A DNA stretch of 64,000 bases, taken from an uncultured archaeon. Lineage in GTDB: Archaea; Micrarchaeota; Micrarchaeia; Micrarchaeales; CABMGC01. Positions 1,104-59,581 of the stretch are shown here, piece by piece. How positions within the stretch are numbered: the stretch's first letter is position 1; every line of letters begins with the position of its first letter. The position numbers and the translations under genes are program-made. Under the pieces are notes generated by a model. It searched no databases. It was not told the DNA's origin and saw only the letters and a list, made by a program, of their open reading frames with translations. The DNA is taken from contig CAWBCT010000005.1 in the NCBI GenBank assembly GCA_963787445.1, positions 224,001-288,000 on the forward strand. The letters are read 5' to 3'.

Positions 1104-1829
1104 TTACCGCTTTCCTCTCACTTCGCACTTCTGCACCAGCGAGAGCTTGAGTATCCTGTCGCACAGCCGGTCCAGCTCCTCGATCTTGTAGGGCACGGTG
1201 TTCCTTAGGTTAGGATCCAGAGTCTTCTGAGTCCTGAACTGCTGCAGGTAGTAGGCCTTTGAGTCCTTGATTGCGTTTGCTATGCGCAGCACGTCCTCCG
1301 GCTCGACAAGACCGGGAACAACGGTTGTCCTGAACTCGTAGTCGATGCCCGAGTCCATCAGGATCCGGATGGAGGTCTTTACGTTATCCAGCAGGCGGCT
1401 CCTGTTTAGCCCGGTTCCTGAGGCGTTCCCGTACTTCTCCTGCTCGAGGGGCGCCTTTAGGTCCATGGCCACATAGTCGAGCTGGTGGGCAAGCAGTAGG
1501 CCGCCAAGAGTTAGAGGGTTAGAGCCGTTGGTGTCGAGCTTTACAAGGAATCCCATCTCCTTGCAGGATTTTATGAACGGGGCGAGCCTGGGCCAGAGGG
1601 TTGGCTCCCCGCCGGTGATCTCCACAGCCTCAACGAAACCCCTGCTTTTCTCGAGCTTTTGGAGTATCTCGCTCTCTTCGTAAACCTTGAGCTTGCCGTA
1701 CTCCTCGAAGACGAGCTCGGGGTTGTGGCAGAACGGGCAGCGCATGTTGCAGCCGCTGATGAAGACTACGGAGCAGATCTTGCCGGGATAGTCTATCAGG
1801 CTGACACGCTGGAACCCGCAGATCTTCAT
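1104..1829 (-). CDS. nrdG: Anaerobic ribonucleotide reductase activating enzyme (radical SAM)
   Basis: Starts MKICGFQRVSLIDYPG; CNMRCPFCHN (CxxxCxxC), ITGGEPT, KLDTNG, YEFRTT; directly downstream of nrdD. Start moved to the ATG at 1829. Confidence 0.93.
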   Translation of the reverse strand: MKICGFQRVSLIDYPGKICSVVFISGCNMRCPFCHNPELVFEEYGKLKVYEESEILQKLEKSRGFVEAVEITGGEPTLWPRLAPFIKSCKEMGFLVKLDTNGSNPLTLGGLLLAHQLDYVAMDLKAPLEQEKYGNASGTGLNRSRLLDNVKTSIRILMDSGIDYEFRTTVVPGLVEPEDVLRIANAIKDSKAYYLQQFRTQKTLDPNLRNTVPYKIEELDRLCDRILKLSLVQKCEVRGKR

Positions 1830-1834
1830 AAAAT

Positions 1835-2020
1835 CTATCGCTGTTCGGCAGTCTGTTGGTCGTAGGTCTTGCGGTCCTTGAACTCCTCGTTCTTGCCCGC
1901 ATTCCACTGCGCCACAGGCCTTAGGTATCCCACTATGCGCGAGTATACTTCGCAGCGCGTCCTCTCGGACTCGTAGGCCTTCAGTCGTTCATTTCTCTCT
2001 TCTTCATCCATATTTTTCAT
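1835..2020 (-). CDS. Stand-alone NrdD C-terminal glycyl-radical domain (61 aa)
   Basis: RCEVYSRIVGYLRPVAQWNAGKNEEFKDR is the class III RNR glycyl-radical loop; ATGA overlap with the nrdD stop (2017-2020); AGGTGA Shine-Dalgarno-like motif just upstream. Confidence 0.88.
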   Translation of the reverse strand: MKNMDEEERNERLKAYESERTRCEVYSRIVGYLRPVAQWNAGKNEEFKDRKTYDQQTAEQR

Positions 2021-4032
2021 GCAGTCACCTTATTGAGTATCTTCTCATCGCACTTGTAGCAGTACTCGTGCTCGCCCTCCAGGTAGCCATGCGTCGGGCA
2101 GATGCTGAAGGTTGGCGTGAGCGTGTAGTACGGCAGCCGGAAATTCTCGGCTATCTTCTTCACCAGCCTCTTCGTCGCTTCCGGCGAGTTTATCGCCTCC
2201 CCCAGGAAGGCGTGCAGCACTGTGCCTCCGGTGTACTTCGCCTGAAGGTCGTCCTGATGAGTTAGCGCCTCAAAGAGGTCGTCGGTGTAGCCCACCGGCA
2301 GGTGGGAGGAGTTCGTGTAGTATGGTGCAGCGCCGCGCTTGTATGCGGCCTCGTTGGCGACTATTATCTCCTTGAACTCTGCCTTGTCCTTCTTCGCGAA
2401 CGAGTAGGCGGTGCTTTCCGCGGGAGTAGCCTCAAGGTTGTAGATGTTGTTGGTCTCTGCCTGGTAGGCCTCGAGCTTGGTGCGCATGAAGTCAAGCACT
2501 CTCATCATGAAGGCTTTGCCCTTCTCGCTCGCTATCGAGGTCTCAAGCAGGTTGAGGCAGGCCTCGTTCGCCCCCACCACGCCTATGGTGCAGAAGTGGT
2601 TCTTCCAGTAGCCGCCGTAGGCCTTCTTTATTCCCTCCAGATAGAACTTCGAATAGGGGTATAGGCCGAGCTCGGTGAAGTGCTCAATCGTCTTGCGCTT
2701 GGTCTCAAGCCCTTCCTTGGCTATGTCCATGAGCCTGCCGAGGCGTTCCAGGAACTCGGCCTCGCTCTCGGAAAGGTAGGCGAGGCGAGGAAGGTTTAGC
2801 GTGAAGACTCCAATGGAACCCGTAAGCGGGTTGGCCCCGAAGAGCCCCCCGCCGCGCTTCTTAAGCTCGCGCGTATCGAGGCGGAGCCTGCAGCACATGC
2901 TGCGCGCGTCCTCTGGCTTCATGTCGCTGTTCACGAAGTTCGAGAAGTACGGTATTCCGTATTTTGCGGTCATGTCCCAAAGGGGTTTGTACGCGGCATT
3001 GTCCCAGTCAAAGTCTTTGGTTATATTATAGGTGGGGATTGGGAATGTGAAGACTCTGCCAACCGCATCCCCTTCTGACATGACTTCCGCAAACGCGATG
3101 TTTATGAGATCCATCTCCTTCTGGAAGTCGGAGTAGGGCGTGTCCGTGAGCTGGCCGCCGACTATGGCCGCCTCGTTTTTCATGTGCTCCGGCACCTTGA
3201 GGTCCATGGTGAGGTTTGTAAAGGGCGTCTGGAAACCCACTCTTGTTGGAACATTCATGTTGAAGACGAACTCCTGCATCGCCTGCCTCACAGCAGGATA
3301 GTCGAGCTTGTCAGCCCTCACAAAAGGCGCAAGATAGGTGTCGAAATTTGAGAAGGCCTGGGCGCCTGCGCTCTCGCCCTGAAGCGTGTAGAAGAAATTG
3401 ACTATCTGCATCAGCGCCGTCCTGAGGTGTTTCGGCGGATTTGATGCAACCTTGCCGCCCGCTCCACGGAAGCCCCTGAGAAGGAGATCCTTCAGGTCCC
3501 AGCCAACGCAATAAGGCCCTAGGAAGTTAAGATTGTGTATGTGGAAGTTGCCGTTGAGCTGCGCCTCCTTGACCTCCTTTGGGAAGATCTTGTTCAGCCA
3601 GTAGGAGGAGATCATGTTTGAGTTAAGGAAGTTATTAAGTCCCTGGATTGAGTAGTCCATGTTGGCGTTCTCCTTCACCTTCCAATCGGTTCTCTGCAGA
3701 TACCGGTCGATCAGCCTGACGTCCTCGGTTATGGAGGCCATCTCCCTGAGATCCTGGTGCTGCTTTCTGTATAGTATGTATGACTTGGCAAGCTCGGTGC
3801 TCCCCGTCTCCATGAGCACGCGCTCCACTACGTCCTGTATCTGCTCGATTGAGATCTTGTCCGTTGTGGGAAGTTCTGCGAGCACCTTCTCGGTCAGAAG
3901 CCTTGACTCTTTTTCAGCGGAATCGGCGTAGAGGCCGGTGCCGTGCATCGCCTTGAGTATCGCCTTCTCTATCTTCTCCTGCTCAAATTTTACTATCCTT
4001 CCGTCCCTTTTCACCACATTTTTAGCAACCAT
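2017..4032 (-). CDS. nrdD: Class III (anaerobic) ribonucleoside-triphosphate reductase with N-terminal ATP-cone, lacking the C-terminal Gly-radical loop
   Basis: ATP-cone VVKRDGR...KIEKAI; SMCCRL finger loop; YNLEATPAES; terminal CPTHG...CYKC zinc site. GGAGGT upstream of the ATG at 4032. Confidence 0.93.
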   Translation of the reverse strand: MVAKNVVKRDGRIVKFEQEKIEKAILKAMHGTGLYADSAEKESRLLTEKVLAELPTTDKISIEQIQDVVERVLMETGSTELAKSYILYRKQHQDLREMASITEDVRLIDRYLQRTDWKVKENANMDYSIQGLNNFLNSNMISSYWLNKIFPKEVKEAQLNGNFHIHNLNFLGPYCVGWDLKDLLLRGFRGAGGKVASNPPKHLRTALMQIVNFFYTLQGESAGAQAFSNFDTYLAPFVRADKLDYPAVRQAMQEFVFNMNVPTRVGFQTPFTNLTMDLKVPEHMKNEAAIVGGQLTDTPYSDFQKEMDLINIAFAEVMSEGDAVGRVFTFPIPTYNITKDFDWDNAAYKPLWDMTAKYGIPYFSNFVNSDMKPEDARSMCCRLRLDTRELKKRGGGLFGANPLTGSIGVFTLNLPRLAYLSESEAEFLERLGRLMDIAKEGLETKRKTIEHFTELGLYPYSKFYLEGIKKAYGGYWKNHFCTIGVVGANEACLNLLETSIASEKGKAFMMRVLDFMRTKLEAYQAETNNIYNLEATPAESTAYSFAKKDKAEFKEIIVANEAAYKRGAAPYYTNSSHLPVGYTDDLFEALTHQDDLQAKYTGGTVLHAFLGEAINSPEATKRLVKKIAENFRLPYYTLTPTFSICPTHGYLEGEHEYCYKCDEKILNKVTA

Positions 4033-4249: not shown

Positions 4250-4630
4250 ATGGCCAACAAGAACGAGTGCCCAACTCTCATCATGACGCACATACTTGGG
4301 AAGAAGTGGACGATACCCATAGTGGAGGAGGTTTACTTCGCGGATGGGAAGGCGCAGTTCAACACCATAAAGAGATCGATAAACAACATAACAGCCAAGA
4401 CGCTAAACGCCTCGCTGCGCGAGCTCTGCAGCATGGACGTGTTGGAGAGGCATGCGTTCAGGCACAACAACGTAAAGTACACAAAATACACGCTTACCGA
4501 GAGGGGCAGGATAATCGAGCAGCTGATACAGGGCACTAAGAAGCTCGGGGTCTGCTGGTACGGGCTGGAGAAGGGCTGCGCCACAAAGAAGTGCGGCAAC
4601 TGCCCGCTTTTCACAGGAAAGGGCAGGTAA
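4250..4630 (+). CDS. HxlR/DUF24-family winged-helix transcriptional regulator with Cys-rich C-tail
   Basis: CP...ILGKKWTIPI...FNTIKRSINNITAKTLNASLREL...YTLTERG pattern; tail CATKKCGNC. Confidence 0.85.
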   Translation: MANKNECPTLIMTHILGKKWTIPIVEEVYFADGKAQFNTIKRSINNITAKTLNASLRELCSMDVLERHAFRHNNVKYTKYTLTERGRIIEQLIQGTKKLGVCWYGLEKGCATKKCGNCPLFTGKGR

Positions 4631-4892: not shown

Positions 4893-5465
4893 ATGGATGC
4901 GAGAAAAGGAGGAAAGCCAGAGACCAGCATCATACGTATGGCTGGGCGAGACATCAACGGTAGTTACAACATTGTCCGAGGACTGGGACAGATAAAGGGG
5001 ATCGGCTACAACCTGGCGAGGGCGCTCGCAAAGTGCTACACGGTCAAGTACGGGATAGACGAGAAGACAGAGATAGGGACGCTCGAGGATGCGCAGATAG
5101 CACAGCTAGAGGCGATGATAAAGGAGCCGGCCAAGGCCGGGGTGCCGTTATACATGCTTAACAGGAGAAAGGATTCGGAGACGGGCGTGGACATGCACGT
5201 CATCGGAACCGACCTGATCGTAAAGATAAGGCAGGACGTCGACATGGGCATAAAGATGCAGACCTGGATCGGCTCCAGGCACCAGTACGGGCAGAAGGTA
5301 AGAGGACAGAAGACCAGGTCCACGGGCAGAACCGGAGCGACGGTCGGAGTCATCAAGAAGTCAGCCCAGGCAGCGGCCGCGCCGGCCAAGGAAGGAGGCG
5401 GCGGGGCAGGAAAGCCAGCGGCAGAGAAGCCTGCGGCAGCCCCGGCAGCCGCGCCGGCAAAGTAG
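4893..5465 (+). CDS. rps13: 30S ribosomal protein S13 (uS13)
   Basis: IKGIG, NRRKDSETG, RHQYGQKVRGQKTRSTGR motifs; Ala/Pro/Lys-rich tail. Confidence 0.97.
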   Translation: MDARKGGKPETSIIRMAGRDINGSYNIVRGLGQIKGIGYNLARALAKCYTVKYGIDEKTEIGTLEDAQIAQLEAMIKEPAKAGVPLYMLNRRKDSETGVDMHVIGTDLIVKIRQDVDMGIKMQTWIGSRHQYGQKVRGQKTRSTGRTGATVGVIKKSAQAAAAPAKEGGGGAGKPAAEKPAAAPAAAPAK

Positions 5466-5472
5466 TGAGTGA

Positions 5473-6036
5473 ATGGGAGCACCGAAGAGAAACCAGAAGA
5501 AGTTTGACCGCCCGTCAACGATGTGGAACAAGCAGAGAATCGAGGAAGAGCGCAAGCTTGTGAATGATTACGGACTTAAGAACCACCGCGAGCTCTGGAA
5601 GGCCACGAGCGAGATAAGAAGGATAAGAAAGAATGTGAGAGAGGTTCTTTCGGGCAGCGCGGAGGACCAGGTAGGGAAGGACGTGGTGGCAAGGCTCGCA
5701 AGGCACAACATAGTGGCGGACGGGGCAATACTCGACGACCTCCTGGTCATAACTCCTTCAGCGATTCTGGAAAGAAGGCTGCAGACAGTGGTCTACAGGA
5801 AGGGGATGGCGAAGACGCTCAGCCAGTCAAGGCAGTTCATAGCGCACGGATTCATAGCGATAAACGGGAGGAGGACGAAGTCGCCCGGATACCTGGTAAG
5901 GAAGTCCGAGGAGGCAGCAATCACCTACTACAAGCCGATAAAGATGGAACAGCCATTGCCGACAACGGCGGCGACAGCCGCAGGGACTGCCCCGGCGGCA
6001 GCGCCAGCGGCTCCGGAGGAGCCTAAGGGAGAATAA
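5473..6036 (+). CDS. rps4: 30S ribosomal protein S4 (uS4)
   Basis: [39 protein letters not shown]. Confidence 0.97.
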
Positions 6037-6038
6037 TC

Positions 6039-6575
6039 ATGCCAGCGAAAAAGGGCGGAAGCGCCCCAGCAAAAGGGAAGAAGACAGACAACAAGCAGGC
6101 AGCCGAGCAGCAGCAGGCGCAGGACAAGAAGAAGGGAGACGTCTCCTACGAAACAGACGTAATGGCGGCGCAGGAGAAGTTCAAGCAGAAGGGGACAAGA
6201 TGGGGAGTGGCGCACATCCTCTCATCCAAGAACAACACAATTATCACGCTTACAGACCTTTCGGGGGCAGAGACCATCGCCATAGGAAGCGGCGGGATGG
6301 TGGTCGACACGGACCACGAAGAGGGCTCGCCCTACGCAGCAACGCAGGCAGCCTACAAGGTTGCAGCTCTCGCCATAGAAAAGGGGGTCACGCACATCAA
6401 CATAAAGATAAGAGCGCCAGGAGGGCACAACTCAAAGACTCCGGGACACGGCGCCCAGGCAGTGGTCAGGGCGCTGGCGCGTTCAGGATTCAGGATAGGG
6501 AGCATAGAGGACGTTACTCCGATGCCTACCGACACGACCAAGAGGGCCGGCGGACGGCGCGGAAGGAGAGTCTAA
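6039..6575 (+). CDS. rps11: 30S ribosomal protein S11 (uS11)
   Basis: [48 protein letters not shown]. Confidence 0.97.
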
Positions 6576-33250: not shown

Positions 33251-33356
33251 CCCGCTGTAGCTCAATGGCAGAGCGATCGACTGTAGTCTGTGAAGCTTCT
33301 TGCAGTTTTTCAAGAAGGATATCGATAGGTTGGGAGTTCAACTCTCCCCAGCGGGA
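33251..33356 (+). tRNA. tRNA-Tyr(GTA) with a 34-nt intron at 37/38 (33287-33320)
   Basis: Acceptor CCCGCTG/CAGCGGG+A; D-arm GCTC-AATGGCA-GAGC; anticodon stem ATCGA/TCGAT with CT-GTA-G; T-arm GGGAG-TTCAACT-CTCCC. Confidence 0.92.
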
Positions 33357-43716: not shown

Positions 43717-44348
43717 TTCTTCACCAGTTTAGAGATCTTCCTTATGTTCTTGGTTATGTCATCGCCGTAAAATAACTCCATGTTCGGTCTATCACCGACT
43801 TGGCAGATTCCACCACTTCAGCTTCTTCAACGCATCCCTTGTCTTCTTGTCGAACCTGAAGTAAAGCAGCTTTGCAGGTGATCCGCCGTATACCCCGTAG
43901 TCCTCAAGCCTCTGCTTTGAGGTGACCAGGCTCTTCGCGCCAGCACTACGCCATCCCCTATGGTGCACCCTCCCAAGAGCATGACATCGCTGCCGATCCA
44001 GCAGTCGTTGCCTATGCTTATGTCGCCGACCACAAAAGATTGATCCGGCGAAAGTTTACGGAATCTTCGGAACGGGTAGGTGGAGATTGAATCGGCCCTG
44101 TGTCCTGAAGACATCATTATCTCGAGCCGGTGGCCTATGCTCGTGTACTTTCCGATCTTCAGGGTCTGTCCCTTGTTCGCCACAACGCTTATTATGCCCG
44201 AGTAGGTGCCCTCTAACCAGGACCCTGCAGCTGGGCTTGTCCGAGAAGTACACATAGGGCCAGCTGCCTAGCGCAGCTTGTAGCTCAGCGATTCTGAGAG
44301 TATGTGGGCTCTTCGCCTTACCGCGTCAAGGAGTTCTCTGTGGCTCAT
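43713..44348 (-). CDS. CatB/Vat-type hexapeptide O-acetyltransferase, multiply frameshifted
   Basis: KIGKYTSIG, ISTYPF, IGNDCWIGSDV, TIGDGVV. Confidence 0.75.
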
Positions 44349-44391
44349 CTTATCAGGTATGAAGTAATCGTTTTATTGCTTTATATGGCTT

Positions 44392-45302
44392 TCAGTCGGC
44401 TTCAGCAGATGCCCAGACCGGCGTGACTTCTTGAACTTGTAATCGAAGAGTATCCTGCTCAGAAGCCCGCCGCGTCCCCCGCCTCGCTCAGGCCGCCGAA
44501 GCTTCCGCTGATCTTCGAGCCTATCTTGAACTCTACGTACTTGCTGCGCGCCTCTGTGAGCATCAGTGAGAGCGAGGCATTTCGGACAATTTATGAATAT
44601 CTCATCGTGTATTTTGCCCTTGGCGAAGGTGCTGGCGATGAACTCCCGGACAGCACGAAGAAGTCCTCGGTATCGATGAACCTCTTTTCATTCTTCATGA
44701 ACAGGGATCATGCGGGGGCTTGAACGGCCCTACAGAAGCACGTAGTCGACGCCGAACCTGCAGAGCGTTTCGTAGACTTTCTTCTTGAAAGGACCCTCAA
44801 GAATGCGCAGTACTCCGAGGCTGGCTCATCTAATCAGATGTATGTAATGGCAGTGGTGTTGCTCCGGCTCCGGGTTAATCCAGACAACATCGACCTTGTC
44901 TTCTTCGGTCTTTAGCAGTTCGTCCTTGAGGATCTTGGGGTCGTCTATCTCATACATGTCATCATTCGCCACTATTATCCACTTTGGCGAGTGGCGCATG
45001 GCGGCGGCGACCCCAGGTTCGTATTATGCGCATAGTTGAATAGCGGATCGCGGCCGCTCTCGACCATCACGATATGGAATCCGGCAAAGATCTTCCTGAA
45101 GTTCTTGGCGTGCTCCCCGTTCCGGTCTATTACAGGTACCACGGCTATGATGCTCTTGTCGCCCTCGAACTCTACTACCTAGGTTCATTGTGGGTGCTCT
45201 TTTTCGAGAACTCAATCAGCTCCTGGTGGTTTTGAACTTGGAGTAGAAGGTGAATATGTCCTTAGGGTCCTTGCTGGTGTACAATACCTCGTTTTCATCC
45301 AT
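44392..45302 (-). CDS. GT2-like or hypothetical glycan-island protein, multiply frameshifted
   Basis: Manually read fragments IAVVPVID, DPLFNYAHN, KWIIVANDDMYEIDD. Confidence 0.55.
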
Positions 45303-45306
45303 TACA

Positions 45307-46431
45307 TTACTGCCTTGCTGCTTTCTTGTAAGATTTCAGTGTCTCCTTCACCACGTTCTCCCAGGTGAACCCGCGGGCCTTATGAAGCCCTTCTTTTTGA
45401 GCAGCTCGCGCTTCTTCTTGTCTTTCGACAGCTCGTAGACCTTCTTCGCCCACTCCTTGAGTCTGCGGGTTTGTCAACGAGCAACGCGGCCCCGCCTGCA
45501 GCCTCAGGGAGCGCGGATGCCCTGGAGGTTATTACAGGTGTGCCACAGGCCATCGCCTCTATTATCGGGAACCCGAGGCCTTCGTATATGGAGGGATAAA
45601 CTGAAAGAAGGGCACAGCCGTAGAGAAGCTGGAGGTCCTTGCCGTACACCCAGGTAAGTCCGATAACGTCCTTTCCTTCCTCAAGCTTCAGCTCCTTGAG
45701 CCTGGGCGCCAGCTTGACCATGTCGACGCGCGTCAATACCAATGGCATTGTGGAGTTGTACTTGTGTTTTAGTATGGACCACGCGCGCAGCATCGTGTCG
45801 GTGTTCTTGTTGGAGGCCATTCCTCCGCCAACATATATGACGTAGTCCGATGGTCCGAGCTTGTATCTCTTCCTTACGTACGCAGGACCTGTGCGTCTGT
45901 CCTTCGCGTTAACCGGGTGGAGGCTTCAACCCCAAAGTATGTGACGTCGATGCGGTTGAGCGGGAAGCCGTACTTCTCGTGGATCTCGTGGCGCTGCGTG
46001 TCGGATACGGAGATTATGCGGTCTGCAAAGCGGGCAGCGGTCCTATAGTTCAACAGCCAGTAGGCGGTCTCCTTCAGAGAGAAGTTGAAGTACTCCGAGT
46101 GGAGGCCGTGGAAGGTTGAGACCAGGGCCACCTTGCGCAGTGACTTCGGCACCAGCGGCAGCGTGTAGGCCATGGAATGGTACACGTCTATCTTGTCCCG
46201 GTCCAGCAGGTCGGTAAACAGCTTGGTTCGCCAAAGGGGATAGGAAAGGTTTACCTTTCGCACCGTATAGTTGCCGGTGAAATTGAGCTTCGGGACCTGG
46301 TTCTTGTTCACGTATATGACGTACTCGTTCTCCTTGTCATTTTTTAGCAGATGCTCAGTGAGCTCGAAGGAGTACTTGACTATGCCGCTGCCCGGCTTGA
46401 GGAAGATTCTGCCGTATAGGCCAATTTTCAT
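45307..46431 (-). CDS. GT4 glycosyltransferase, frameshifted
   Basis: STFHGL, ISVSD, YPSIYEGLGFPIIEAMACGTPVITS, FTWE tail. Confidence 0.8.
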
Positions 46432-46610
46432 CTTATTCACATTCAACAAAGTGCGCAGAAAGGCAAGTGCGCCATAATCAAATAATAAGTATGAGGCAGT
46501 ATTTATTAATTACTTCGCAATACCCGCAGTTCCGACGACTATGGTGGTTAAGTTTGTGTATAAAAAGGTTTAGTTGCTAGTTATTATCATAAAAGTGTTG
46601 GACGATTCAA

Positions 46611-47570
<960 letters not shown>

Positions 47571-47580
47571 CAGGAGTTCG

Positions 47581-48805
47581 CTATTACCTCGCAGGTAAGC
47601 GAGTTTACAGGCCTGCCTCCCTTTTTGAGATACCAACTCATCTTCTTCTTTTTCCGTAATCCATATTAGTTCCAGGCTCCGACTATCAGGTAGTCGGGCA
47701 TGTCGCTTCTGATGAACCGCTCGTGCTTTACGAGTATGTTCGCCTTTGGGATGTGGCGGCCTATCTTCGCAGGAGTGTAGTCATATGCATACTCTATCTG
47801 CTCGTTGGTTATCTCGCAGAAGTTAAGCAGCGTGGCGATCTTTGCCGGCGCCATCCAGATGGAAACGCGCTTCCCGTTCCTGTTCAGAGAGCCTATCAGC
47901 TTCCTGATCTCCCGCTTTCTCTGGTCGGCCTGTTTCTGGAGCCCCCTTCATCGTCTTGAGATCGTATAATCCGGACTGCTTCTCCAGCAGCATGAACCTT
48001 TTCAGCGGGCCCTCCTTTCCGTGCTTCCTTCCGGAGCACGCGGACCGAGCCGCCGAGCTGCTTCGGAAGGTACCTCACATCCACAATCTTGAGCCCGCAG
48101 CTGTGCGCAAGCCTGGTAAACGCCCTGATGTTCGCAAGACGTAGTAGTGCTCGGCGTAGATGGTGTCTATCTGGAAGTTCTTGACGAAATCCTTCAGCCA
48201 GTGGACCTCTATGGAAATGGTTCCCGTCTCTCCCGCAAGCCTCTTCATCCCCAGCAGCATGTCCCGGGGATCTGGGATATCGGCAAACCAGTTTGTTCGC
48301 CATTACAAGGTCTGCCGTGCCGTACTTGGTCGCCATGGAATCAGCCAGCTCGCTGCCGAAGAAGCTGTTTATGGTCTTGTGACCGTTGCTGTTGGCAAGC
48401 CGGGCCATGTTCTTCGTGGGTTCCACACCTATGACCTGCTTGAATCCTCCATGTTTCTTGAGCAGTGCTATCTCTGTGCCATCTAGTTGGAGCCCACCAC
48501 CACCGCAAACTCTCTGCGCTTCAGGTTCTTCTTCATTACAGAAGCCAGCGCCTTGAGATGATCAACTCGGGGCGTTATCCTTGATACTGAATAGGTGTAG
48601 TGGCTGTTGAATAGTTCTGACCTATCCACCAGCTCGGCCTGCTGGAAAAATGTGCAGTCTTTGCACCAGTAGCACACCAGCGGGTAGCTCTTCACCCTCT
48701 TTTAAGCTGCTGCTTGGTGAGAAACCCGTTGGCATTCGGCATGCTGCCCAGGTCGAGCACCTTGACCAGATTGTTGCTGCCACATACTTTGCACGAGTAA
48801 TCCAA
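47581..48805 (-). CDS. NDP-hexose C-methyltransferase-like protein, multiply frameshifted
   Basis: CKVCG...LDLGSMPNANGF, CYWCKDC...Q, VGSN, EPTKN, DTIYAEH, PAK...LLNFC, PDYLIVGAWN. Ends approximate. Confidence 0.75.
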
Positions 48806-48815
48806 AATATCACAT

Positions 48816-49371
48816 CTATGCTTCAGTCTCTGCGTCCTGAAGCTTCGGCCAGCCTTTGTCCGAATAAGACAGTACCGGTTCGGCCAGAAGAGGAGCACGG
48901 TTATTCCCAATGCGGGGTCATTCCCCAGTACTCCCCTGCTCCACTCCTTTGAGTACTCCTTTGTCGTCCTATAAAGGATGGCCGTGTTGTCTTCAAGAGC
49001 CATGAAGCCATGCGCAAATCCTTCCGGGACCCACAGCATCCGGGGCTTGTCAGATGAAAGCCCCACTCCCTATCCATTTTGAATATGTTGCAGAGCTTTT
49101 CCTGATATCAACCACGACGTCGAATATGCTTCCGGAGAGAACCGTAACCAGCTTTCCTTGCTGCGCCGGTTTCAGCTGGTAGTGCAGACCGCGCACCACA
49201 TTTTTCCTTGACTTTGAGATGCTCTCCTGTGCAAAAGTCTGGGAAATGCCGTTGGCTTCAAACTCGGAGTGCTTATACATCTTCGATAAATGAGCCCTTG
49301 TTGTCAGGATGCGAGTCGCAGTCCACCAGCAGCACATCAGGGATGCCCAGTTTGGTGAATTTAAGTGTCAT
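48816..49371 (-). CDS. rfbC: dTDP-4-dehydrorhamnose 3,5-epimerase, frameshifted
   Basis: SKSRKNVVRGLHYQ, QGKLV, DVVVDIR, LWVPEGFAHGF. Confidence 0.88.
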
Positions 49372-50135
49372 CTACTCGTGCTCACTTTTGCGACTTTTGG
49401 TAGATACATGTTCTTTGCCAGCTCATTGGCTTTGAACAGGGACTCAAACGTCCCAGTTGTCACGTCCACTCGGATTCTATTATCTTGTAATCAAGCTTCC
49501 CTTCATTAAGGTACATATTTATGAGATCGGTCATCTCCAGCTCTCCGCGCGCAGATGGCTTCAGCTTCTTTATCCTGCCGAATGCAGTATCATCGATCAG
49601 ATACATGCCGGTGAGCGCATAGTTCGACTTTGGCACCTTGGGCTTCTCCTCGAACGCAACAATCCTATTGCTTCCATCAAAGGCAGGAACACCAAAGCGC
49701 GCAGGGTTCTCCACCTGCTTGAGGAATACCATTGCACCCTTCTTTTTCTCGAATTCGGCGATGCTTGAGCGTATCATCTCAAACTCTGAATCGGTGAAAT
49801 TGAATATGTTGTCACCCAGAATAACTACCACATTCTCTCCTTTGAACACGCCAAGCGCAAGACTGAGCGCATGTGCTATGCCAAGAGAACCTTCCTGAAC
49901 CTTGTAGGTGATATTGACCCCAAACTCGTGTGCCACTTCCCAGCAATCCTGCAAAACTTCCGGTGTGATCCTTTCCGGTAACCACAAGAAGGTCGGTTAT
50001 CCCAAAACTTGCCAGCGCTGCTATGGCGTAGTAGATCATGGGTTTGTTGAATATGAGATTAAGGTTCTTGTTGGTCACTTTTGTTATTGGACGCAGGCGC
50101 GTGCCTTCTCCTCCCGCAAGTACTACTCCTTTCAT
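49372..50135 (-). CDS. rfbA: Glucose-1-phosphate thymidylyltransferase, frameshifted
   Basis: VLAGGEGTRLRPIT, LGDNIF, EEKPKVPKSNYA, KPSARGELE. Confidence 0.88.
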
Positions 50136-50209
50136 ATTTAACCCCAGAATACCTCATTTTTAGATTGGATTACGCTGATATTTAAACGTAATGCTCGTAT
50201 AAATCCAAC

Positions 50210-57817: not shown

Positions 57818-57915
57818 TGCAGGGGGAGAGATTTGTTCAGTTTTATTGAACTCCCGTAGGCCTAAGCCAACAGATCTTGAGTCTGTCGCATTTGACCAGG
57901 CTCTGCCACCCCTGC
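57818..57915 (-). tRNA. tRNA-Leu(CAA) with a 13-nt T-loop intron (57833-57845, about position 58/59)
   Basis: Acceptor GCAGGGG/CCCCTGC+A; anticodon ACAGA-CT-CAA-GA-TCTGT; variable arm GGC-TTAG-GCC; T-stem GGGAG/CTCTC around a 20-nt loop that reduces to TTCAAAT. Confidence 0.88.
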
Positions 57916-58141
57916 AACATCTACTAATTGCAACATATTACATATTAAAACATATGATATACAATGTAAGATAATTTATCCTGATATTTAAAGGTATCGT
58001 TATTTGTTTTACGATGATATAATTGATTTTTGACGTCGGTGGGATTTGTACTTGCGTTGCCGACTGCGAAGATTTTTACATATGTTCAGACCATATTCAC
58101 TGTGTAATCGAGCATTGTTACGTAAGGCTTTAGATGGTAGG

Positions 58142-59581
58142 ATGGAGATCTCAAAGATATCTGATGTTAAATTTTCAATAGCGAAGGGAGCCCAGCCCGG
58201 AATGAATGGCGGAGTGGTCGTCTATGCCACGGAACCCATGCTGGAGAAGATGAAGGGAGATACTACACTTCAGCAGGCGATGAATGCGACAACCCTTCCG
58301 GGACTTATTGGAAACGTCTTGGTGATGCCCGATGGCCACCAAGGCTACGGCTTTCCGGTCGGTGGAGTTGCGGCATTTGATGCGGAAAACGGGATAATCT
58401 CACCGGGAGCGGTGGGCTTCGACATCAATTGCGGCGTACGCCTGATAAAGACAAACCTTACGGAGAAGGATTTGAAAGGAAATATCACTCAACTCTCCGA
58501 TGCACTCTTCAAGAATGTGCCAACGGGCGTTGGCAGCAAACTAAACCTAGGATTCACGCAGAGCGACCTTGAGAAAGTTGCACACGAAGGGGCAGAGTAC
58601 GCCATAGGCAAGGGCTTCGGGATGGAAAGTGACACGGAAAGCATAGAAGAGAACGGAAGACTTGCCGGGGCGGACTTCAAGGAGGTTAGCAAAGAGGCCA
58701 AGTCAAGAGGCCTGAACCAGTTGGGAACCCTAGGCGCAGGCAACCACTTTCTAGAAGTCCAAAAAGTAGAGAAGATATTTGATGAAAAGATTGCAAAGGC
58801 GTACGGGCTTGAGGAAAACCAGGTAGTGATAATGGTGCACACCGGCTCTCGCGGCTTCGGGCACCAGATCTGCAGCGACTTCCTGCGCACCCTGGTAACC
58901 TACCAGCAGGAGCACAACATAAGCATCGTTGACAAGGAGCTGAGCTACGCGCACATCGGCAGCAAGGAGGCGAACAGCTACATAAAGGCGATGAACTGCG
59001 CAGTCAACTTCGCTTTCACCAACAGGCAGATGATAACCCACCTCGTAAGAAAGAGTTTCTCGGAAGTGTTCGGCAGGAGCGCAGACGCGCTTGGCATGGA
59101 GCTGCTTTATGACGTTGCGCACAATATCGCAAAGCCCGAGATGCACACTTTTGAAGGAAAGAAGCGCATGCTTTACATACACCGCAAGGGCGCCACGCGC
59201 GCGTATCCAAAGGGCCTGGCTGAGGTACCTAGGAAATACCGCGCAGTTGGGCAGCCGGTCATAATACCGGGAAGCATGAGCACCGGAAGCTACGTCCTAT
59301 GCGGGATGGAGGGCTCGATGACGGAGTCTTTTGGCTCTGCCTGCCACGGTTCCGGCAGGGTGATGTCTCGCCACCAGGCGATGCGCGACATTCCGGCATC
59401 AAAGACATTTGAGTCGCTCAAGGCGAAGCACATTGAGATAAGGGTAAAGACACGGAAGCTCATAAGCGAGGAGGCGGAGTGGGCCTACAAGAACCCGGAT
59501 GACGTGGTCAGCGTCGTTGAACGGGCGAATCTTGCAAAGATCGTGTCAAAGAACAAGCCGATGATAGTGATAAAGGGATGA
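58142..59581 (+). CDS. rtcB: RNA-splicing ligase RtcB
   Basis: MPDGHQGYGFPVG, DINCGVR, GTLGAGNHFLE, HTGSRG, HNIA, HRKGATRA, HGSGR, EEA..AYK. Confidence 0.97.
   Translation: MEISKISDVKFSIAKGAQPGMNGGVVVYATEPMLEKMKGDTTLQQAMNATTLPGLIGNVLVMPDGHQGYGFPVGGVAAFDAENGIISPGAVGFDINCGVRLIKTNLTEKDLKGNITQLSDALFKNVPTGVGSKLNLGFTQSDLEKVAHEGAEYAIGKGFGMESDTESIEENGRLAGADFKEVSKEAKSRGLNQLGTLGAGNHFLEVQKVEKIFDEKIAKAYGLEENQVVIMVHTGSRGFGHQICSDFLRTLVTYQQEHNISIVDKELSYAHIGSKEANSYIKAMNCAVNFAFTNRQMITHLVRKSFSEVFGRSADALGMELLYDVAHNIAKPEMHTFEGKKRMLYIHRKGATRAYPKGLAEVPRKYRAVGQPVIIPGSMSTGSYVLCGMEGSMTESFGSACHGSGRVMSRHQAMRDIPASKTFESLKAKHIEIRVKTRKLISEEAEWAYKNPDDVVSVVERANLAKIVSKNKPMIVIKG

What the first reader, a model, noticed from the sequence alone, without database searches (positions are those of the whole stretch)
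1835..4032. Split class III RNR with the glycyl-radical domain on its own 61-aa gene
Seen: NrdD stops just after its Zn site (CYKCDEKILNKVTA*) and the radical loop YSRIVGYLRP is in the next ORF, coupled by an ATGA overlap and preceded by AGGTGA. A forced fusion would need a linker of about 30 aa between CYKC and the loop, longer than usual. Known: O2 cleaves glycyl-radical enzymes at the radical Gly, and E. coli YfiD/GrcA is an autonomous spare glycyl-radical domain for PFL; I recall short NrdD-tail proteins being annotated in some bacteria, so the split may not be unique. Inference: a replaceable radical cartridge, so oxygen damage costs 61 aa rather than the whole enzyme.
Basis: partly seen in the sequence, partly recalled or inferred. 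Interest (0 to 1): 0.7.

Follow-up and report, generated by a model that had tools for sequence, protein, structure and literature searches.

The report
Two-gene anaerobic ribonucleotide reductase
An archaeal anaerobic ribonucleotide reductase carries its radical-bearing tail on a separate 61-residue protein, a natural split that proves common in uncultured microbes and could show how such oxygen-sensitive enzymes are kept working.

Summary
On the minus strand, nrdD (4032-2017, 671 aa: ATP-cone, barrel, Zn ribbon) stops 10 residues after its CxxH...CxxC site. A 61-aa ORF (2020-1835) starts in an ATGA overlap behind AGGTGA and carries the glycyl-radical loop. nrdG follows 5 nt later.

It is not an assembly slip. 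The window's protein sits in a well-supported clade of 21 proteins (itself included), 20 of them split, with a conserved 10-14-residue tail. Of the 120 most similar large subunits listed, 106 lack the radical domain. The protein search found 330 free-standing small proteins. In seven genomes, one a cultured Halanaerobium, nrdG lies between the two genes. On trees the split/fused state changes at least 6-7 times. A fold of large plus small chain passed its controls (0.81 against 0.00).

So this is a real, obligate two-chain class III RNR. It is widespread, but I found no description of it in eight literature searches. Related loci hold true extra copies next to intact NrdD, orphan copies, and one in an archaeal virus.

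The parts
2017..4032 (-). nrdD core gene, 671 aa plus the TGA stop. It encodes the ATP-cone, the NRDD barrel and the Zn ribbon, but no glycyl-radical loop.
   Evidence: Pfam NRDD E 6e-177 (profile positions 1-531 of 562); NF006126 1029.6 bits against a cut-off of 548.
3754..4020 (-). ATP-cone (residues 5-93)
   Evidence: PF03477, E 3e-21.
2890..2895 (-). Finger-loop cysteines C380 and C381 (SMCCR motif)
   Evidence: The sequence is. Both residues are invariant in the 75-row alignment A2. The T. maritima SCCR motif is described in PMC4493059 (passages read).
2050..2100 (-). Zn ribbon: C645-x2-H648 ... C658-x2-C661
   Evidence: C645, P646, H648, C658 and C661 are invariant in A2. T. maritima NrdD binds Zn through a Cys/His/Cys/Cys motif at the same place (PMC4493059).
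2020..2049 (-). 10-residue tail DEKILNKVTA after the Zn site
   Evidence: The 20 closest large subunits end with the same kind of tail, 10-14 residues long. In the fold, residues 661-662, 665-666 and 669 touch the small chain.
2025..2030 (-). AGGTGA, a Shine-Dalgarno-like site 4 nt before the small ORF's ATG
2017..2020 (-). ATGA: the start codon of the small ORF overlaps the stop codon of nrdD
   Evidence: L013 has the same -4 overlap.
1835..2020 (-). Small gene, 61 aa plus TAG: the glycyl-radical subunit
   Evidence: NRDD profile positions 531-562 of 562, E 1.3e-10; 330 free-standing relatives.
1928..1930 (-). Codon of Gly31, the predicted radical site within SRIVGYLRP
   Evidence: G31 is invariant in the 34-row alignment A1. 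It aligns with the Gly of the RIVGY motif of T. maritima NrdD; that paper numbers its radical glycine G621. The match of the two is by motif, not by chain numbering.
1952..1954 (-). Codon of Cys23, just before EVYSR
   Evidence: Invariant in A1 and present in 115 of the 117 small proteins that carry the motif. In the fold it touches C645 and C658.
1104..1829 (-). nrdG activase, 241 aa, starting 5 nt after the small gene
   Evidence: TIGR02495 NrdG2, 200.8 bits against a cut-off of 131.15. Radical_SAM.

Best explanation
This is a genuine three-gene operon, nrdD-core, radical subunit, nrdG. It encodes a class III ribonucleotide reductase whose catalytic subunit is made of two polypeptides.

- The 671-aa chain holds the ATP-cone, the barrel with its finger-loop cysteines, and a complete Cys/His/Cys/Cys Zn ribbon.
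- The 61-aa chain holds the buried glycine loop (Gly31) and the surface tail that normally end the same polypeptide.
- The small chain is made from its own AGGTGA/ATG, and the ATGA overlap couples its translation to the end of nrdD.

Inferred mechanism:
1. NrdG abstracts the hydrogen of Gly31 on the small chain.
2. The small chain docks on the large chain. Its TRCEVY strand pairs with the TFSIC strand beside the Zn ribbon. Its N-terminal helix (M4, R9, R12, L13, Y16) packs on the 10-residue tail of the large chain. Its glycine loop enters the barrel.
3. The radical then passes to the finger-loop cysteine, as in single-chain NrdD.

The split arose at the base of a clade of archaeal (Micrarchaeota-like) sequences and has been kept there. 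Similar splits arose independently at the same variable linker in other lineages.

The radical-bearing piece is not covalently attached, so an oxygen-cleaved piece could in principle be swapped for a new one. That consequence is inference. I put it at about 0.3 as the reason the split is kept.
For: Anatomy and homology
- Anatomy.
- The Zn ligands are all in the large chain: C645, H648, C658 and C661 are invariant in 75 truncated large subunits.

Conservation of the split
- In the 78-row tree the window sits in a clade of 21 rows (SH-aLRT 95), the window included. 20 rows are split and 1 (P0254) is fused and nested. The neighbouring groups are fused.
- The 20 closest large subunits are 601-677 aa (19 of them 669-677; P0250 lacks its N-terminus). 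All end 10-14 residues after the Zn site, with tails like the window's.
- Nine large/small pairs have the same longest-contig length to the base. I infer that each pair lies on one contig.

Prevalence
- Of the 120 listed best matches to the large chain's last 201 residues (the window's own protein included), 106 end 4-112 residues after the Zn site (median 20) without a radical loop; 14 are fused.
- 330 of 330 candidate proteins of 33-107 aa match the small ORF at E <= 1e-3. Of the 120 listed, 117 carry the motif, and all 117 start with Met.
- A profile search gave 5049 cluster representatives at E <= 1e-3. All of the best 150 are 48-149 aa.

Genome loci (best 80 of at least 596 confirmed)
- 19 have nrdD-core, small gene, nrdG in that order.
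- 7 have nrdD-core, nrdG, small gene, including Halanaerobium saccharolyticum strain MA284_T2 (L045). A frameshift cannot produce that order.
- Shine-Dalgarno-like sites precede the small gene in most non-CPR (Candidate Phyla Radiation) cases.

Fold of residues 101-671 plus the small chain plus Zn
- Score 0.81 (median of three runs) against a best control of 0.00.
- That mark was reached by 116 of 157 solved complexes and by 2 of 215 mismatched pairs.
- The runs agree in at least 89% of contacts, and the partner's pLDDT is at least 77.
- NrdD structures with the domain in cis are solved, so the pass may come from likeness to them. It shows that the two chains can rebuild the known fold, not that they bind.

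Other
- Only one copy of each gene lies in the window.
Against: - No reads, transcripts, peptides or biochemistry are available.
- The fused relative P0254, nested among split ones, shows that a single small change at the overlap can toggle the state.
- The same window holds a stretch (43.8-50.2 kb) where sugar and glycosyltransferase genes survive only as fragments of their profiles. Either gene decay or local assembly error therefore occurs on this contig.
- Whether the rest of the genome holds an intact nrdD is unknown.
- The nearest relative among the 80 genome loci (L019) is fused.
- The 80 loci and the protein lists are ranked by likeness to split forms, so their proportions are not prevalence estimates.
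Confidence: 0.82

Rival explanations
1. Replaceable radical cartridge. The split is kept by selection because oxygen cleaves only the 61-aa chain, which is then exchanged for a fresh, NrdG-activated copy, sparing the 671-aa enzyme.
For: - Established knowledge: oxygen cleaves glycyl-radical enzymes at the radical glycine, and YfiD/GrcA and T4 Y06I rescue cleaved PFL (passages of PMC13450708 and PMC8683613).
- The split/fused state changes at least 6-7 times on well-supported branches, and the split is kept within clades.
- Other genomes carry extra free radical domains beside an intact NrdD (L031-L033) or at unrelated places (L014, L029, L038, L048, L078). The archaeal virus ANMV-1 also has one. 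This suggests a demand for the domain in trans.
Against: - The ATGA overlap points to about one-to-one synthesis.
- No second copy lies in the window.
- The predicted interface is extensive, with the glycine loop buried.
- Exchange has never been shown for any NrdD.
- Nothing here ties the split to oxygen exposure.
Confidence: 0.3
2. Neutral gene fission. The Zn-ribbon-to-loop linker is variable and tolerant. A stop/start pair arising there costs nothing, because the tail docks anyway. The split then persists without any repair benefit.
For: - Linker length in fused relatives ranges from 4 to 30 residues.
- The splits all fall in this one linker.
- Junction geometry varies widely, from a 20-nt overlap to a 194-nt gap.
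- Many carriers are small-genome CPR and DPANN lineages (record titles).
- A re-fused form, P0254, is nested among split ones.
Against: - Recurrence, long retention and the relocated small gene behind nrdG (7 loci) show at least that the two-chain form works well.
- In the window's clade the tail and the small chain's N-terminal helix are conserved rather than drifting.
Confidence: 0.45
3. Easier activation. A free radical domain can be presented to NrdG without the large conformational swing-out that a tethered domain needs, and is loaded afterwards.
For: - In P. copri NrdD the radical domain is highly mobile, and the buried glycine must leave the barrel to be activated (passages of PMC11226230 and PMC4493059).
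- PFL activase installs a radical on free YfiD (PMC13450708).
Against: No data here bear on NrdG kinetics. Fused forms with the same type of NrdG are common.
Confidence: 0.15
4. Artefact or pseudogene: a sequencing or assembly indel, or recent decay, broke a single-chain nrdD.
For: - Fragmented genes occur elsewhere in the window.
- L054 shows that broken nrdD genes do occur in assemblies: its nrdD lies in several frames while its relative L077 is fused.
Against: - Within the window's 21-row clade, 20 rows (the window included) are split.
- The identical small protein is recorded on 5 contigs.
- The fusing indel would have to fall within 12 nt that hold no homopolymer, and a start codon and AGGTGA are in place there.
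- The linker equivalent is 33 residues, not the 4-15 of the neighbouring fused groups.
Confidence: 0.03
5. Recoding: a single fused protein is made by stop-codon read-through or a programmed frameshift.
For: The small ORF lies in the -1 frame relative to nrdD, and the two overlap.
Against: - Reading TGA through continues as WKIWMKKREMND and meets a second TGA, out of frame with the radical loop.
- No X-XXY-YYZ slippery heptamer lies before the stop (read).
- In other loci the small gene is 15-194 nt away or behind nrdG.
Confidence: 0.03

Closest known systems
Single-chain class III RNR NrdD of the Thermotoga maritima type (PDB 4COI, 4U3E)
   Same: - Same family and lineage: the NRDD barrel, a double-cysteine finger-loop motif, a Cys/His/Cys/Cys Zn ribbon, then the RIVGY glycine loop.
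- The small ORF aligns to chain residues 611-648 of 4COI.
- A NrdG activase lies next door.
   Different: Here the chain ends 10 residues after the Zn ribbon, and the glycine loop with its surface tail is a separate gene product. The solved relatives are distant (E 1e-31 for the core, 0.17 for the tail).
GrcA/YfiD of E. coli and Y06I of phage T4 (autonomous glycyl-radical cofactors for pyruvate formate-lyase)
   Same: A small free-standing protein made essentially of a glycyl-radical domain, presumably activated by the parent enzyme's activase and inserted into the parent barrel.
   Different: - GrcA is related to the PFL C-terminus; the small ORF here matches only NRDD.
- GrcA backs up an enzyme that still has its own domain. 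Here the core enzyme has none, so the small protein is an obligate subunit.
- The review PMC13450708 (June 2026, passages read) says spare parts are known only for formate lyases.
Split class II RNR NrdJa/NrdJb of Pseudomonas aeruginosa
   Same: An RNR catalytic subunit encoded as two consecutive genes, with the C-terminal functional module on the second chain (PMC9669993 passages; PMC4520616 seen in search listings only).
   Different: - Different class: B12-dependent, with no glycyl radical.
- The separated module there is an IscU-like plus zinc-finger domain with the reducing cysteines, not the radical site.
Free-standing Zn-ribbon plus radical-domain proteins of about 85-145 aa found here (L031-L033, L014/L029/L038/L048/L078, ANMV-1 virus AJP62049.1)
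   Same: The same NrdD-type radical loop (EVYSR.VGY.RPV.QWN), encoded as a small separate gene.
   Different: - They bring their own CHDC...KC..C Zn ribbon.
- They sit beside an intact NrdD (L031-L033), at unrelated loci with no nrdD within 4 kb, or in a virus.
- They therefore look like true spares, whereas the window's protein has no ribbon and follows a core that lacks the loop.

Membership tests
Class III RNR catalytic subunit NrdD (PF13597 / NF006126) | NRDD barrel domain above the curated cut-off | tested here: met
   590.1 bits against 26.2. NF006126 1029.6 bits against 548.
Class III RNR catalytic subunit NrdD (PF13597 / NF006126) | Finger-loop cysteine(s) that receive the radical | tested here: met
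   The SMCCR motif is at residues 378-382. C380 and C381 are invariant in A2. This is a sequence test only.
Class III RNR catalytic subunit NrdD (PF13597 / NF006126) | Zn ribbon between the last barrel strand and the glycine loop | tested here: met
   C645, H648, C658 and C661 are invariant. The T. maritima motif lies at the same place.
Class III RNR catalytic subunit NrdD (PF13597 / NF006126) | Glycyl-radical loop at the C-terminus of the same polypeptide | tested here: not met
   The large ORF covers NRDD profile positions 1-531 only. Positions 531-562 are in the next ORF.
Class III RNR catalytic subunit NrdD (PF13597 / NF006126) | Cognate radical-SAM activase NrdG encoded nearby | tested here: met
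   TIGR02495, 200.8 bits against 131.15. The gene lies 5 nt downstream.
Class III RNR catalytic subunit NrdD (PF13597 / NF006126) | Glycyl radical formed and ribonucleoside triphosphates reduced | not testable with these tools
   Needs anaerobic reconstitution, EPR and an activity assay.
GrcA/YfiD autonomous glycyl-radical cofactor | Small protein consisting of a glycyl-radical domain | tested here: met
   61 aa; residues 20-53 match the NRDD C-terminus.
GrcA/YfiD autonomous glycyl-radical cofactor | Sequence relative of the PFL C-terminal domain | tested here: not met
   Pfam and NCBIfam scans at E <= 0.01 return only NrdD models for the small ORF.
GrcA/YfiD autonomous glycyl-radical cofactor | Parent enzyme keeps its own radical domain (spare, not sole copy) | tested here: not met
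   The adjacent NrdD has no radical loop, and no other copy lies in the 64 kb. The rest of the genome was not seen.
GrcA/YfiD autonomous glycyl-radical cofactor | Restores activity to the oxygen-cleaved enzyme | not testable with these tools
   A bench experiment.
Split-intein or 'fractured' gene | Intein halves flank the break | tested here: not met
   No intein family matches either ORF. The tail is 10 aa and the N-terminal extension 22 aa, too short for intein halves. Inteins in relatives lie elsewhere, at positions 175, 268 and 380 of the window protein.
Split class II RNR (NrdJa/NrdJb) | Class II (B12-dependent) catalytic domain | tested here: not met
   The best models are all class III. 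Class II models match only the ATP-cone.

The most novel reading that the evidence does not exclude
Free NrdD-type radical domains are a general, exchangeable protein cofactor of class III ribonucleotide reductases. NrdG charges them off the enzyme, they plug into the core, and they are swapped after oxygen damage. They would come in three grades:
- obligate subunits (this window and its clade, CPR bacteria, Halanaerobium);
- extra copies beside an intact NrdD (Moraniibacteriota);
- orphan or virus-borne spares with their own Zn ribbon (Desulfobacterales, ANMV-1).

This would be the first spare-part system for a glycyl-radical enzyme other than pyruvate formate-lyase. It would also be a second case, after T4 Y06I, of a virus carrying such a part.
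Probability: 0.3. Interest if true: 0.85.

Novelty: new variant of a known kind. Interest (0 to 1): 0.7.

Why it matters
All textbook and structural work treats the class III RNR catalytic subunit as one chain whose C-terminal domain carries the radical. A natural enzyme with that domain on a 7-kDa protein of its own changes what a minimal NrdD is.

- It offers a small, separately labelled substrate for studying NrdG activation and radical transfer.
- It bears directly on a question a June 2026 review leaves open: whether spare-part proteins exist for glycyl-radical enzymes other than PFL (PMC13450708, passages read).
- It matters for annotation. Truncated large subunits are named as complete reductases, the small ORFs are often unnamed, and a 144-aa viral fragment was read as a whole reductase (PMC4372165, passages read).
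- Surveys that keep only sequences of 400-1100 aa (PMC9531940, passage read) would retain the truncated large chains and not see what they lack.
- A cultured carrier, Halanaerobium saccharolyticum, makes bench tests feasible.

Tried and rejected
- Sequencing artefact: rejected on clade conservation.
- TGA read-through: rejected. Programmed frameshift: no slippery site.
- Split intein: rejected.
- An inter-chain Zn site needing Cys23: not supported as a requirement, because the large chain already has four invariant ligands and T. maritima uses the equivalent four. The fold does place Cys23 against C645 and C658, so a role near the metal stays open.
- PDB sequence search with the small ORF: only a weak T. 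maritima match (E 0.17).
- Phage collection, searched with the small ORF: 2 of 50,697 records matched. One is a fused 802-aa NrdD (L082). The other is the ANMV-1 free domain.
- ARAGORN found no tRNA in the window, although Rfam finds two.
The profile search lists only its best 150. No unbiased prevalence could therefore be computed.
- Literature: eight searches and passages of ten papers gave no description of a split NrdD or an NrdD spare part. Subscription journals are not in the library, so an earlier mention cannot be excluded.
Full report
**What is there.** The minus strand of 1104-4032 holds three tightly packed genes.
- nrdD starts at ATG 4032, with GGAGG 7 nt upstream, and ends at TGA 2019-2017 (671 aa).
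- A 61-aa ORF starts at ATG 2020-2018, inside the letters ATGA, with AGGTGA at 2030-2025. It ends at TAG 1837-1835.
- nrdG starts at ATG 1829 (241 aa).

**Homology of the three genes.**
- Large ORF: an ATP-cone (E 3e-21) and an NRDD domain covering profile positions 1-531 of 562 (E 6e-177). It matches NF006126 over 3-656 of 684 (1029.6 bits, cut-off 548).
- Small ORF: it matches the missing ends, NRDD 531-562 of 562 (E 1.3e-10) and NF006126 649-683 of 684.
- Third gene: NrdG2 (TIGR02495, 200.8 bits against 131.15).

The window itself is archaeal: it holds fibrillarin, RtcB, deoxyhypusine synthase, an archaeal-type AdoMet synthetase and a class I LysRS. It holds one copy of each of the three genes.

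**Where the break falls.** In 75 truncated large subunits, C645, P646, H648, C658, C661 and D662 are invariant. T. maritima NrdD binds Zn through a Cys/His/Cys/Cys motif placed between the last barrel strand and the glycine loop (PMC4493059, passages). The Zn ribbon is therefore complete in the large chain, and the break lies in the linker between the ribbon and the glycine loop.

That linker is variable in fused relatives. I counted 4, 9, 15 or 22 residues between the last Zn cysteine and EVYSR, and 30 in P0254. The window's equivalent is 33 (10 + 23).

**Is it an error?**
- In the small ORF's frame a TAA lies four codons before the ATG. Only an indel within about 12 nt, which hold no homopolymer, could fuse the genes.
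- Reading the TGA through gives an unrelated peptide and meets a second TGA.
- No slippery heptamer precedes the stop.
- The identical 61-aa protein is recorded on 5 contigs.
- The decisive argument is comparative. I searched with the last 201 residues of the large chain. The 20 closest proteins (P0242-P0261 without P0254; 69-74% identity) are 601-677 aa, 19 of them 669-677. All end 10-14 residues after the Zn site, with tails such as DEIILKGVSK, DEILLNKVKK and DADLMLKKVVK, like the window's DEKILNKVTA.
- Nine of these share their longest-contig length, to the base, with one of the closest small proteins. I take this to mean that each pair lies on one contig.

**Tree of the window's relatives.** I built a tree of 78 cores cut at the Zn motif (IQ-TREE quick, LG+G4). 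I left out six fragments under 590 aa.
- The window lies in a clade of 21 rows (SH-aLRT 95), the window included. 20 are split and one, P0254, is fused and nested inside.
- The neighbouring groups are fused: P0136; P0132/P0134, the latter identical to L019; and the P0264 group. NCBI names P0136, and the record title names L019, as Micrarchaeia or Micrarchaeota.

**How common is it?**
- Of the 120 listed best matches to the large chain's C-terminal part (8000 scored; the window's own protein included), 106 lack the radical loop and 14 have it.
- All 330 candidates of 33-107 aa match the small ORF at E <= 1e-3. Of the 120 listed, 117 carry the motif, all 117 begin with Met, and 115 have the Cys before EVYSR.
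- A profile of 34 small proteins finds 5049 cluster representatives at E <= 1e-3 among 1.84 billion. The best 150 are all 48-149 aa.
- These lists are ranked by likeness to split forms, so they show abundance, not proportion.

**The 80 genome loci.** My classification is below.

| Class | Loci |
|---|---|
| Fused only | 39 |
| Fused, with an additional small gene | 3 (L031-L033) |
| Cut by a contig end | 3 (L003, L027, L044) |
| nrdD-core, small gene, nrdG | 19 (L006, L008, L010-L013, L022, L028, L037, L040, L041, L052, L058, L062, L063, L069, L071, L074, L079) |
| nrdD-core, nrdG, small gene | 7 (L002, L004, L005, L009, L025, L045, L067) |
| Small gene with no nrdD within the locus | 8 (L014, L029, L038, L048, L078; L023, L035, L042) |
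| nrdD broken over several frames, probably damaged or mis-assembled | 1 (L054) |

- In six of the seven loci with nrdG in between, the large match ends at residue 662-664 of the window protein. The seventh, L067, is interrupted by a run of N.
- That group includes the isolate Halanaerobium saccharolyticum MA284_T2 (L045). Its four members with complete large ORFs (L002, L004, L025, L045) form one clade (SH-aLRT 99). No frameshift can produce that gene order.
- In the 63-row tree (18 loci left out: 15 without a usable large ORF, and L054, L063 and L067) the split/fused state needs 9 changes, at least 6 of them on well-supported branches.
- In the 78-row tree it needs 9 changes, at least 7 on well-supported branches.
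- Junctions range from a 20-nt overlap to a 194-nt gap. L013 repeats the ATGA overlap. Shine-Dalgarno-like sites precede the small gene in the window and in L006, L008, L011, L012, L013, L037, L040, L041, L052 and L071.

**How the two chains would fit.** I folded residues 101-671 of the large chain, the small chain and Zn, each protein with its own alignment.
- The score was 0.81 (median of three runs) against 0.00 for the best of three controls.
- That mark was reached by 116 of 157 solved complexes and by 2 of 215 mismatched pairs.
- The runs agree in at least 89% of contacts, and the partner's pLDDT is at least 77.
- NrdD structures with the domain in cis are solved, so this pass may be likeness from memory. 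It shows the two chains can rebuild the known fold, not that they bind.
- The surest contacts pair small-chain residues 21-26 (TRCEVY) with large-chain residues 641-645 (TFSIC), 654-658 and 661, beside the Zn ribbon.
- Small-chain M4, R9, R12, L13 and Y16 face tail residues 661-662, 665-666 and 669.
- In 10 of the 11 closest small proteins that I inspected, a Leu lies 10 residues before Cys23, with Ile in the eleventh. The tail keeps its hydrophobic pair and Val. This fits a small helix-helix clasp replacing the covalent link.
- Gly31 is invariant and aligns with the Gly of the RIVGY motif of the T. maritima enzyme.

**Function.**
- Shown: a conserved, widespread two-gene architecture with every sequence feature of an active NrdD, apart from having two chains.
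- Inferred: NrdG makes the radical on the small chain, which docks and passes it to the finger-loop cysteine.
Nothing here tests it.
- The overlap implies coupled, near-equimolar synthesis, and the predicted interface is large.
- A neutral fission at a tolerant linker explains the window equally well.
- A third idea is that a free domain reaches the activase more easily. It draws on the mobility of the radical domain in P. copri NrdD (PMC11226230, passages).

**Comparison with what is known.** It is a member of the NrdD family in all but one defining feature, the radical loop on the same chain, which was tested and not met. It works like GrcA only in being a free radical domain. It is not a GrcA relative, and it is not a spare (membership table). 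The nearest architectural parallel is the split class II NrdJa/NrdJb.

**Literature.** Eight full-text searches and passages of ten papers gave no mention of a split NrdD.
- The large RNR phylogeny kept only sequences of 400-1100 aa. It would have retained the truncated cores without noticing the loss.
- Subscription papers could not be searched.

**Verdict.** A real feature, correctly seen. It is one member of a large, apparently undescribed variant of class III RNR. The adaptive story is open, and with a cultured carrier it is directly testable.

Noticed in passing
L031 4225-4479; L032 4216-4461; L033 4232-4486 (small ORFs between nrdD and nrdG): Three Moraniibacteriota/Parcubacteria genomes have an intact NrdD with its own radical loop. 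101-117 nt after it comes an 81-84 aa gene with a CHDC...KC..CH Zn ribbon and a second radical loop nearly identical to the enzyme's own, and nrdG follows. This looks like a true GrcA-style spare for NrdD.
   Followed up: partly
L014 3617-4117, L029 3737-4114, L038 3737-4117, L048 3770-4105, L078 3620-4102; proteins P0137-P0237 of about 108-135 aa: A well-conserved family of about 115 aa in Desulfobacterales. It has an N-terminal helix (..ERLHELF..), a CHDC...KC..CF Zn ribbon with an insert, and an NrdD-type radical loop. The genes lie between AsmA-family and S1-domain genes or other unrelated genes, with no nrdD or nrdG within 4 kb.
   Followed up: partly
L081 2722-3156 (KP703175.1, ANMV-1 virus, protein AJP62049.1): An archaeal virus encodes a 144-aa member of that same Zn-ribbon plus radical-loop family and no full NrdD nearby. 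The record and its paper (PMC4372165, passages read) treat it as a whole oxygen-sensitive reductase. It parallels phage T4 Y06I for PFL.
   Followed up: partly
P0018, P0085, P0103, P0111, P0116; L035 4001-4174; L006 and L037 small ORFs: A subfamily of free radical domains has a conserved N-terminal stretch, REDEN.NLVLEDGTVIP, before the loop. In L035 (Caldisericum) the gene is not next to nrdD, and an nrdG lies on the opposite strand 0.6 kb away.
   Followed up: no
Small proteins; truncated large subunits: 16 of the 117 small radical-domain proteins end in a Cys pair (C-x0-3-C). 17 of the 106 truncated large subunits carry an extra CxxC in the tail after the Zn ribbon. The window's own pair has neither. 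These pairs could be a second metal site or a redox shuttle.
   Followed up: no
L002, L006, L020, L022, L024, L040; proteins P0136, P0178, P0191, P0205: Many NrdD genes of this lineage carry inteins (Pfam PF14890, PF14528). They are inserted at positions matching residues 175, 268 and 380 of the window protein, the last inside the finger-loop CC motif. None lies at the split site.
   Followed up: no
window 33251-33356 (+) and 57818-57915 (-): Rfam finds two tRNA genes of 106 and 98 nt (59.2 and 42.7 bits) that ARAGORN did not call. They are probably intron-bearing archaeal tRNAs. The RtcB ligase gene lies at 58046-59578.
   Followed up: no
window 43800-50200: A sugar-nucleotide and glycosyltransferase cluster survives only as short ORFs that cover parts of their Pfam profiles. 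Examples are GT4 and GT1 halves at 45877-46449 and 45383-45820, an epimerase covering positions 132-270 of 332, and an NTP-transferase covering 59-226 of 245. This is either gene decay or local assembly error.
   Followed up: partly
window 4893-6572: Ribosomal proteins S13, S4 and S11 carry Ala/Pro/Lys/Gly-rich low-complexity extensions: C-terminal on S13 and S4, N-terminal on S11.
   Followed up: no
window 4250-4627 (+): An HxlR-type helix-turn-helix regulator ending in a Cys-rich tail is transcribed divergently from nrdD, about 220 nt upstream. It may regulate the operon.
   Followed up: no
L054 2016-4105: In this Saccharicrinis assembly the nrdD lies in three frames, while its relative L077 is intact and fused. 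It is an example of a broken nrdD that should not be counted as a natural split.
   Followed up: partly
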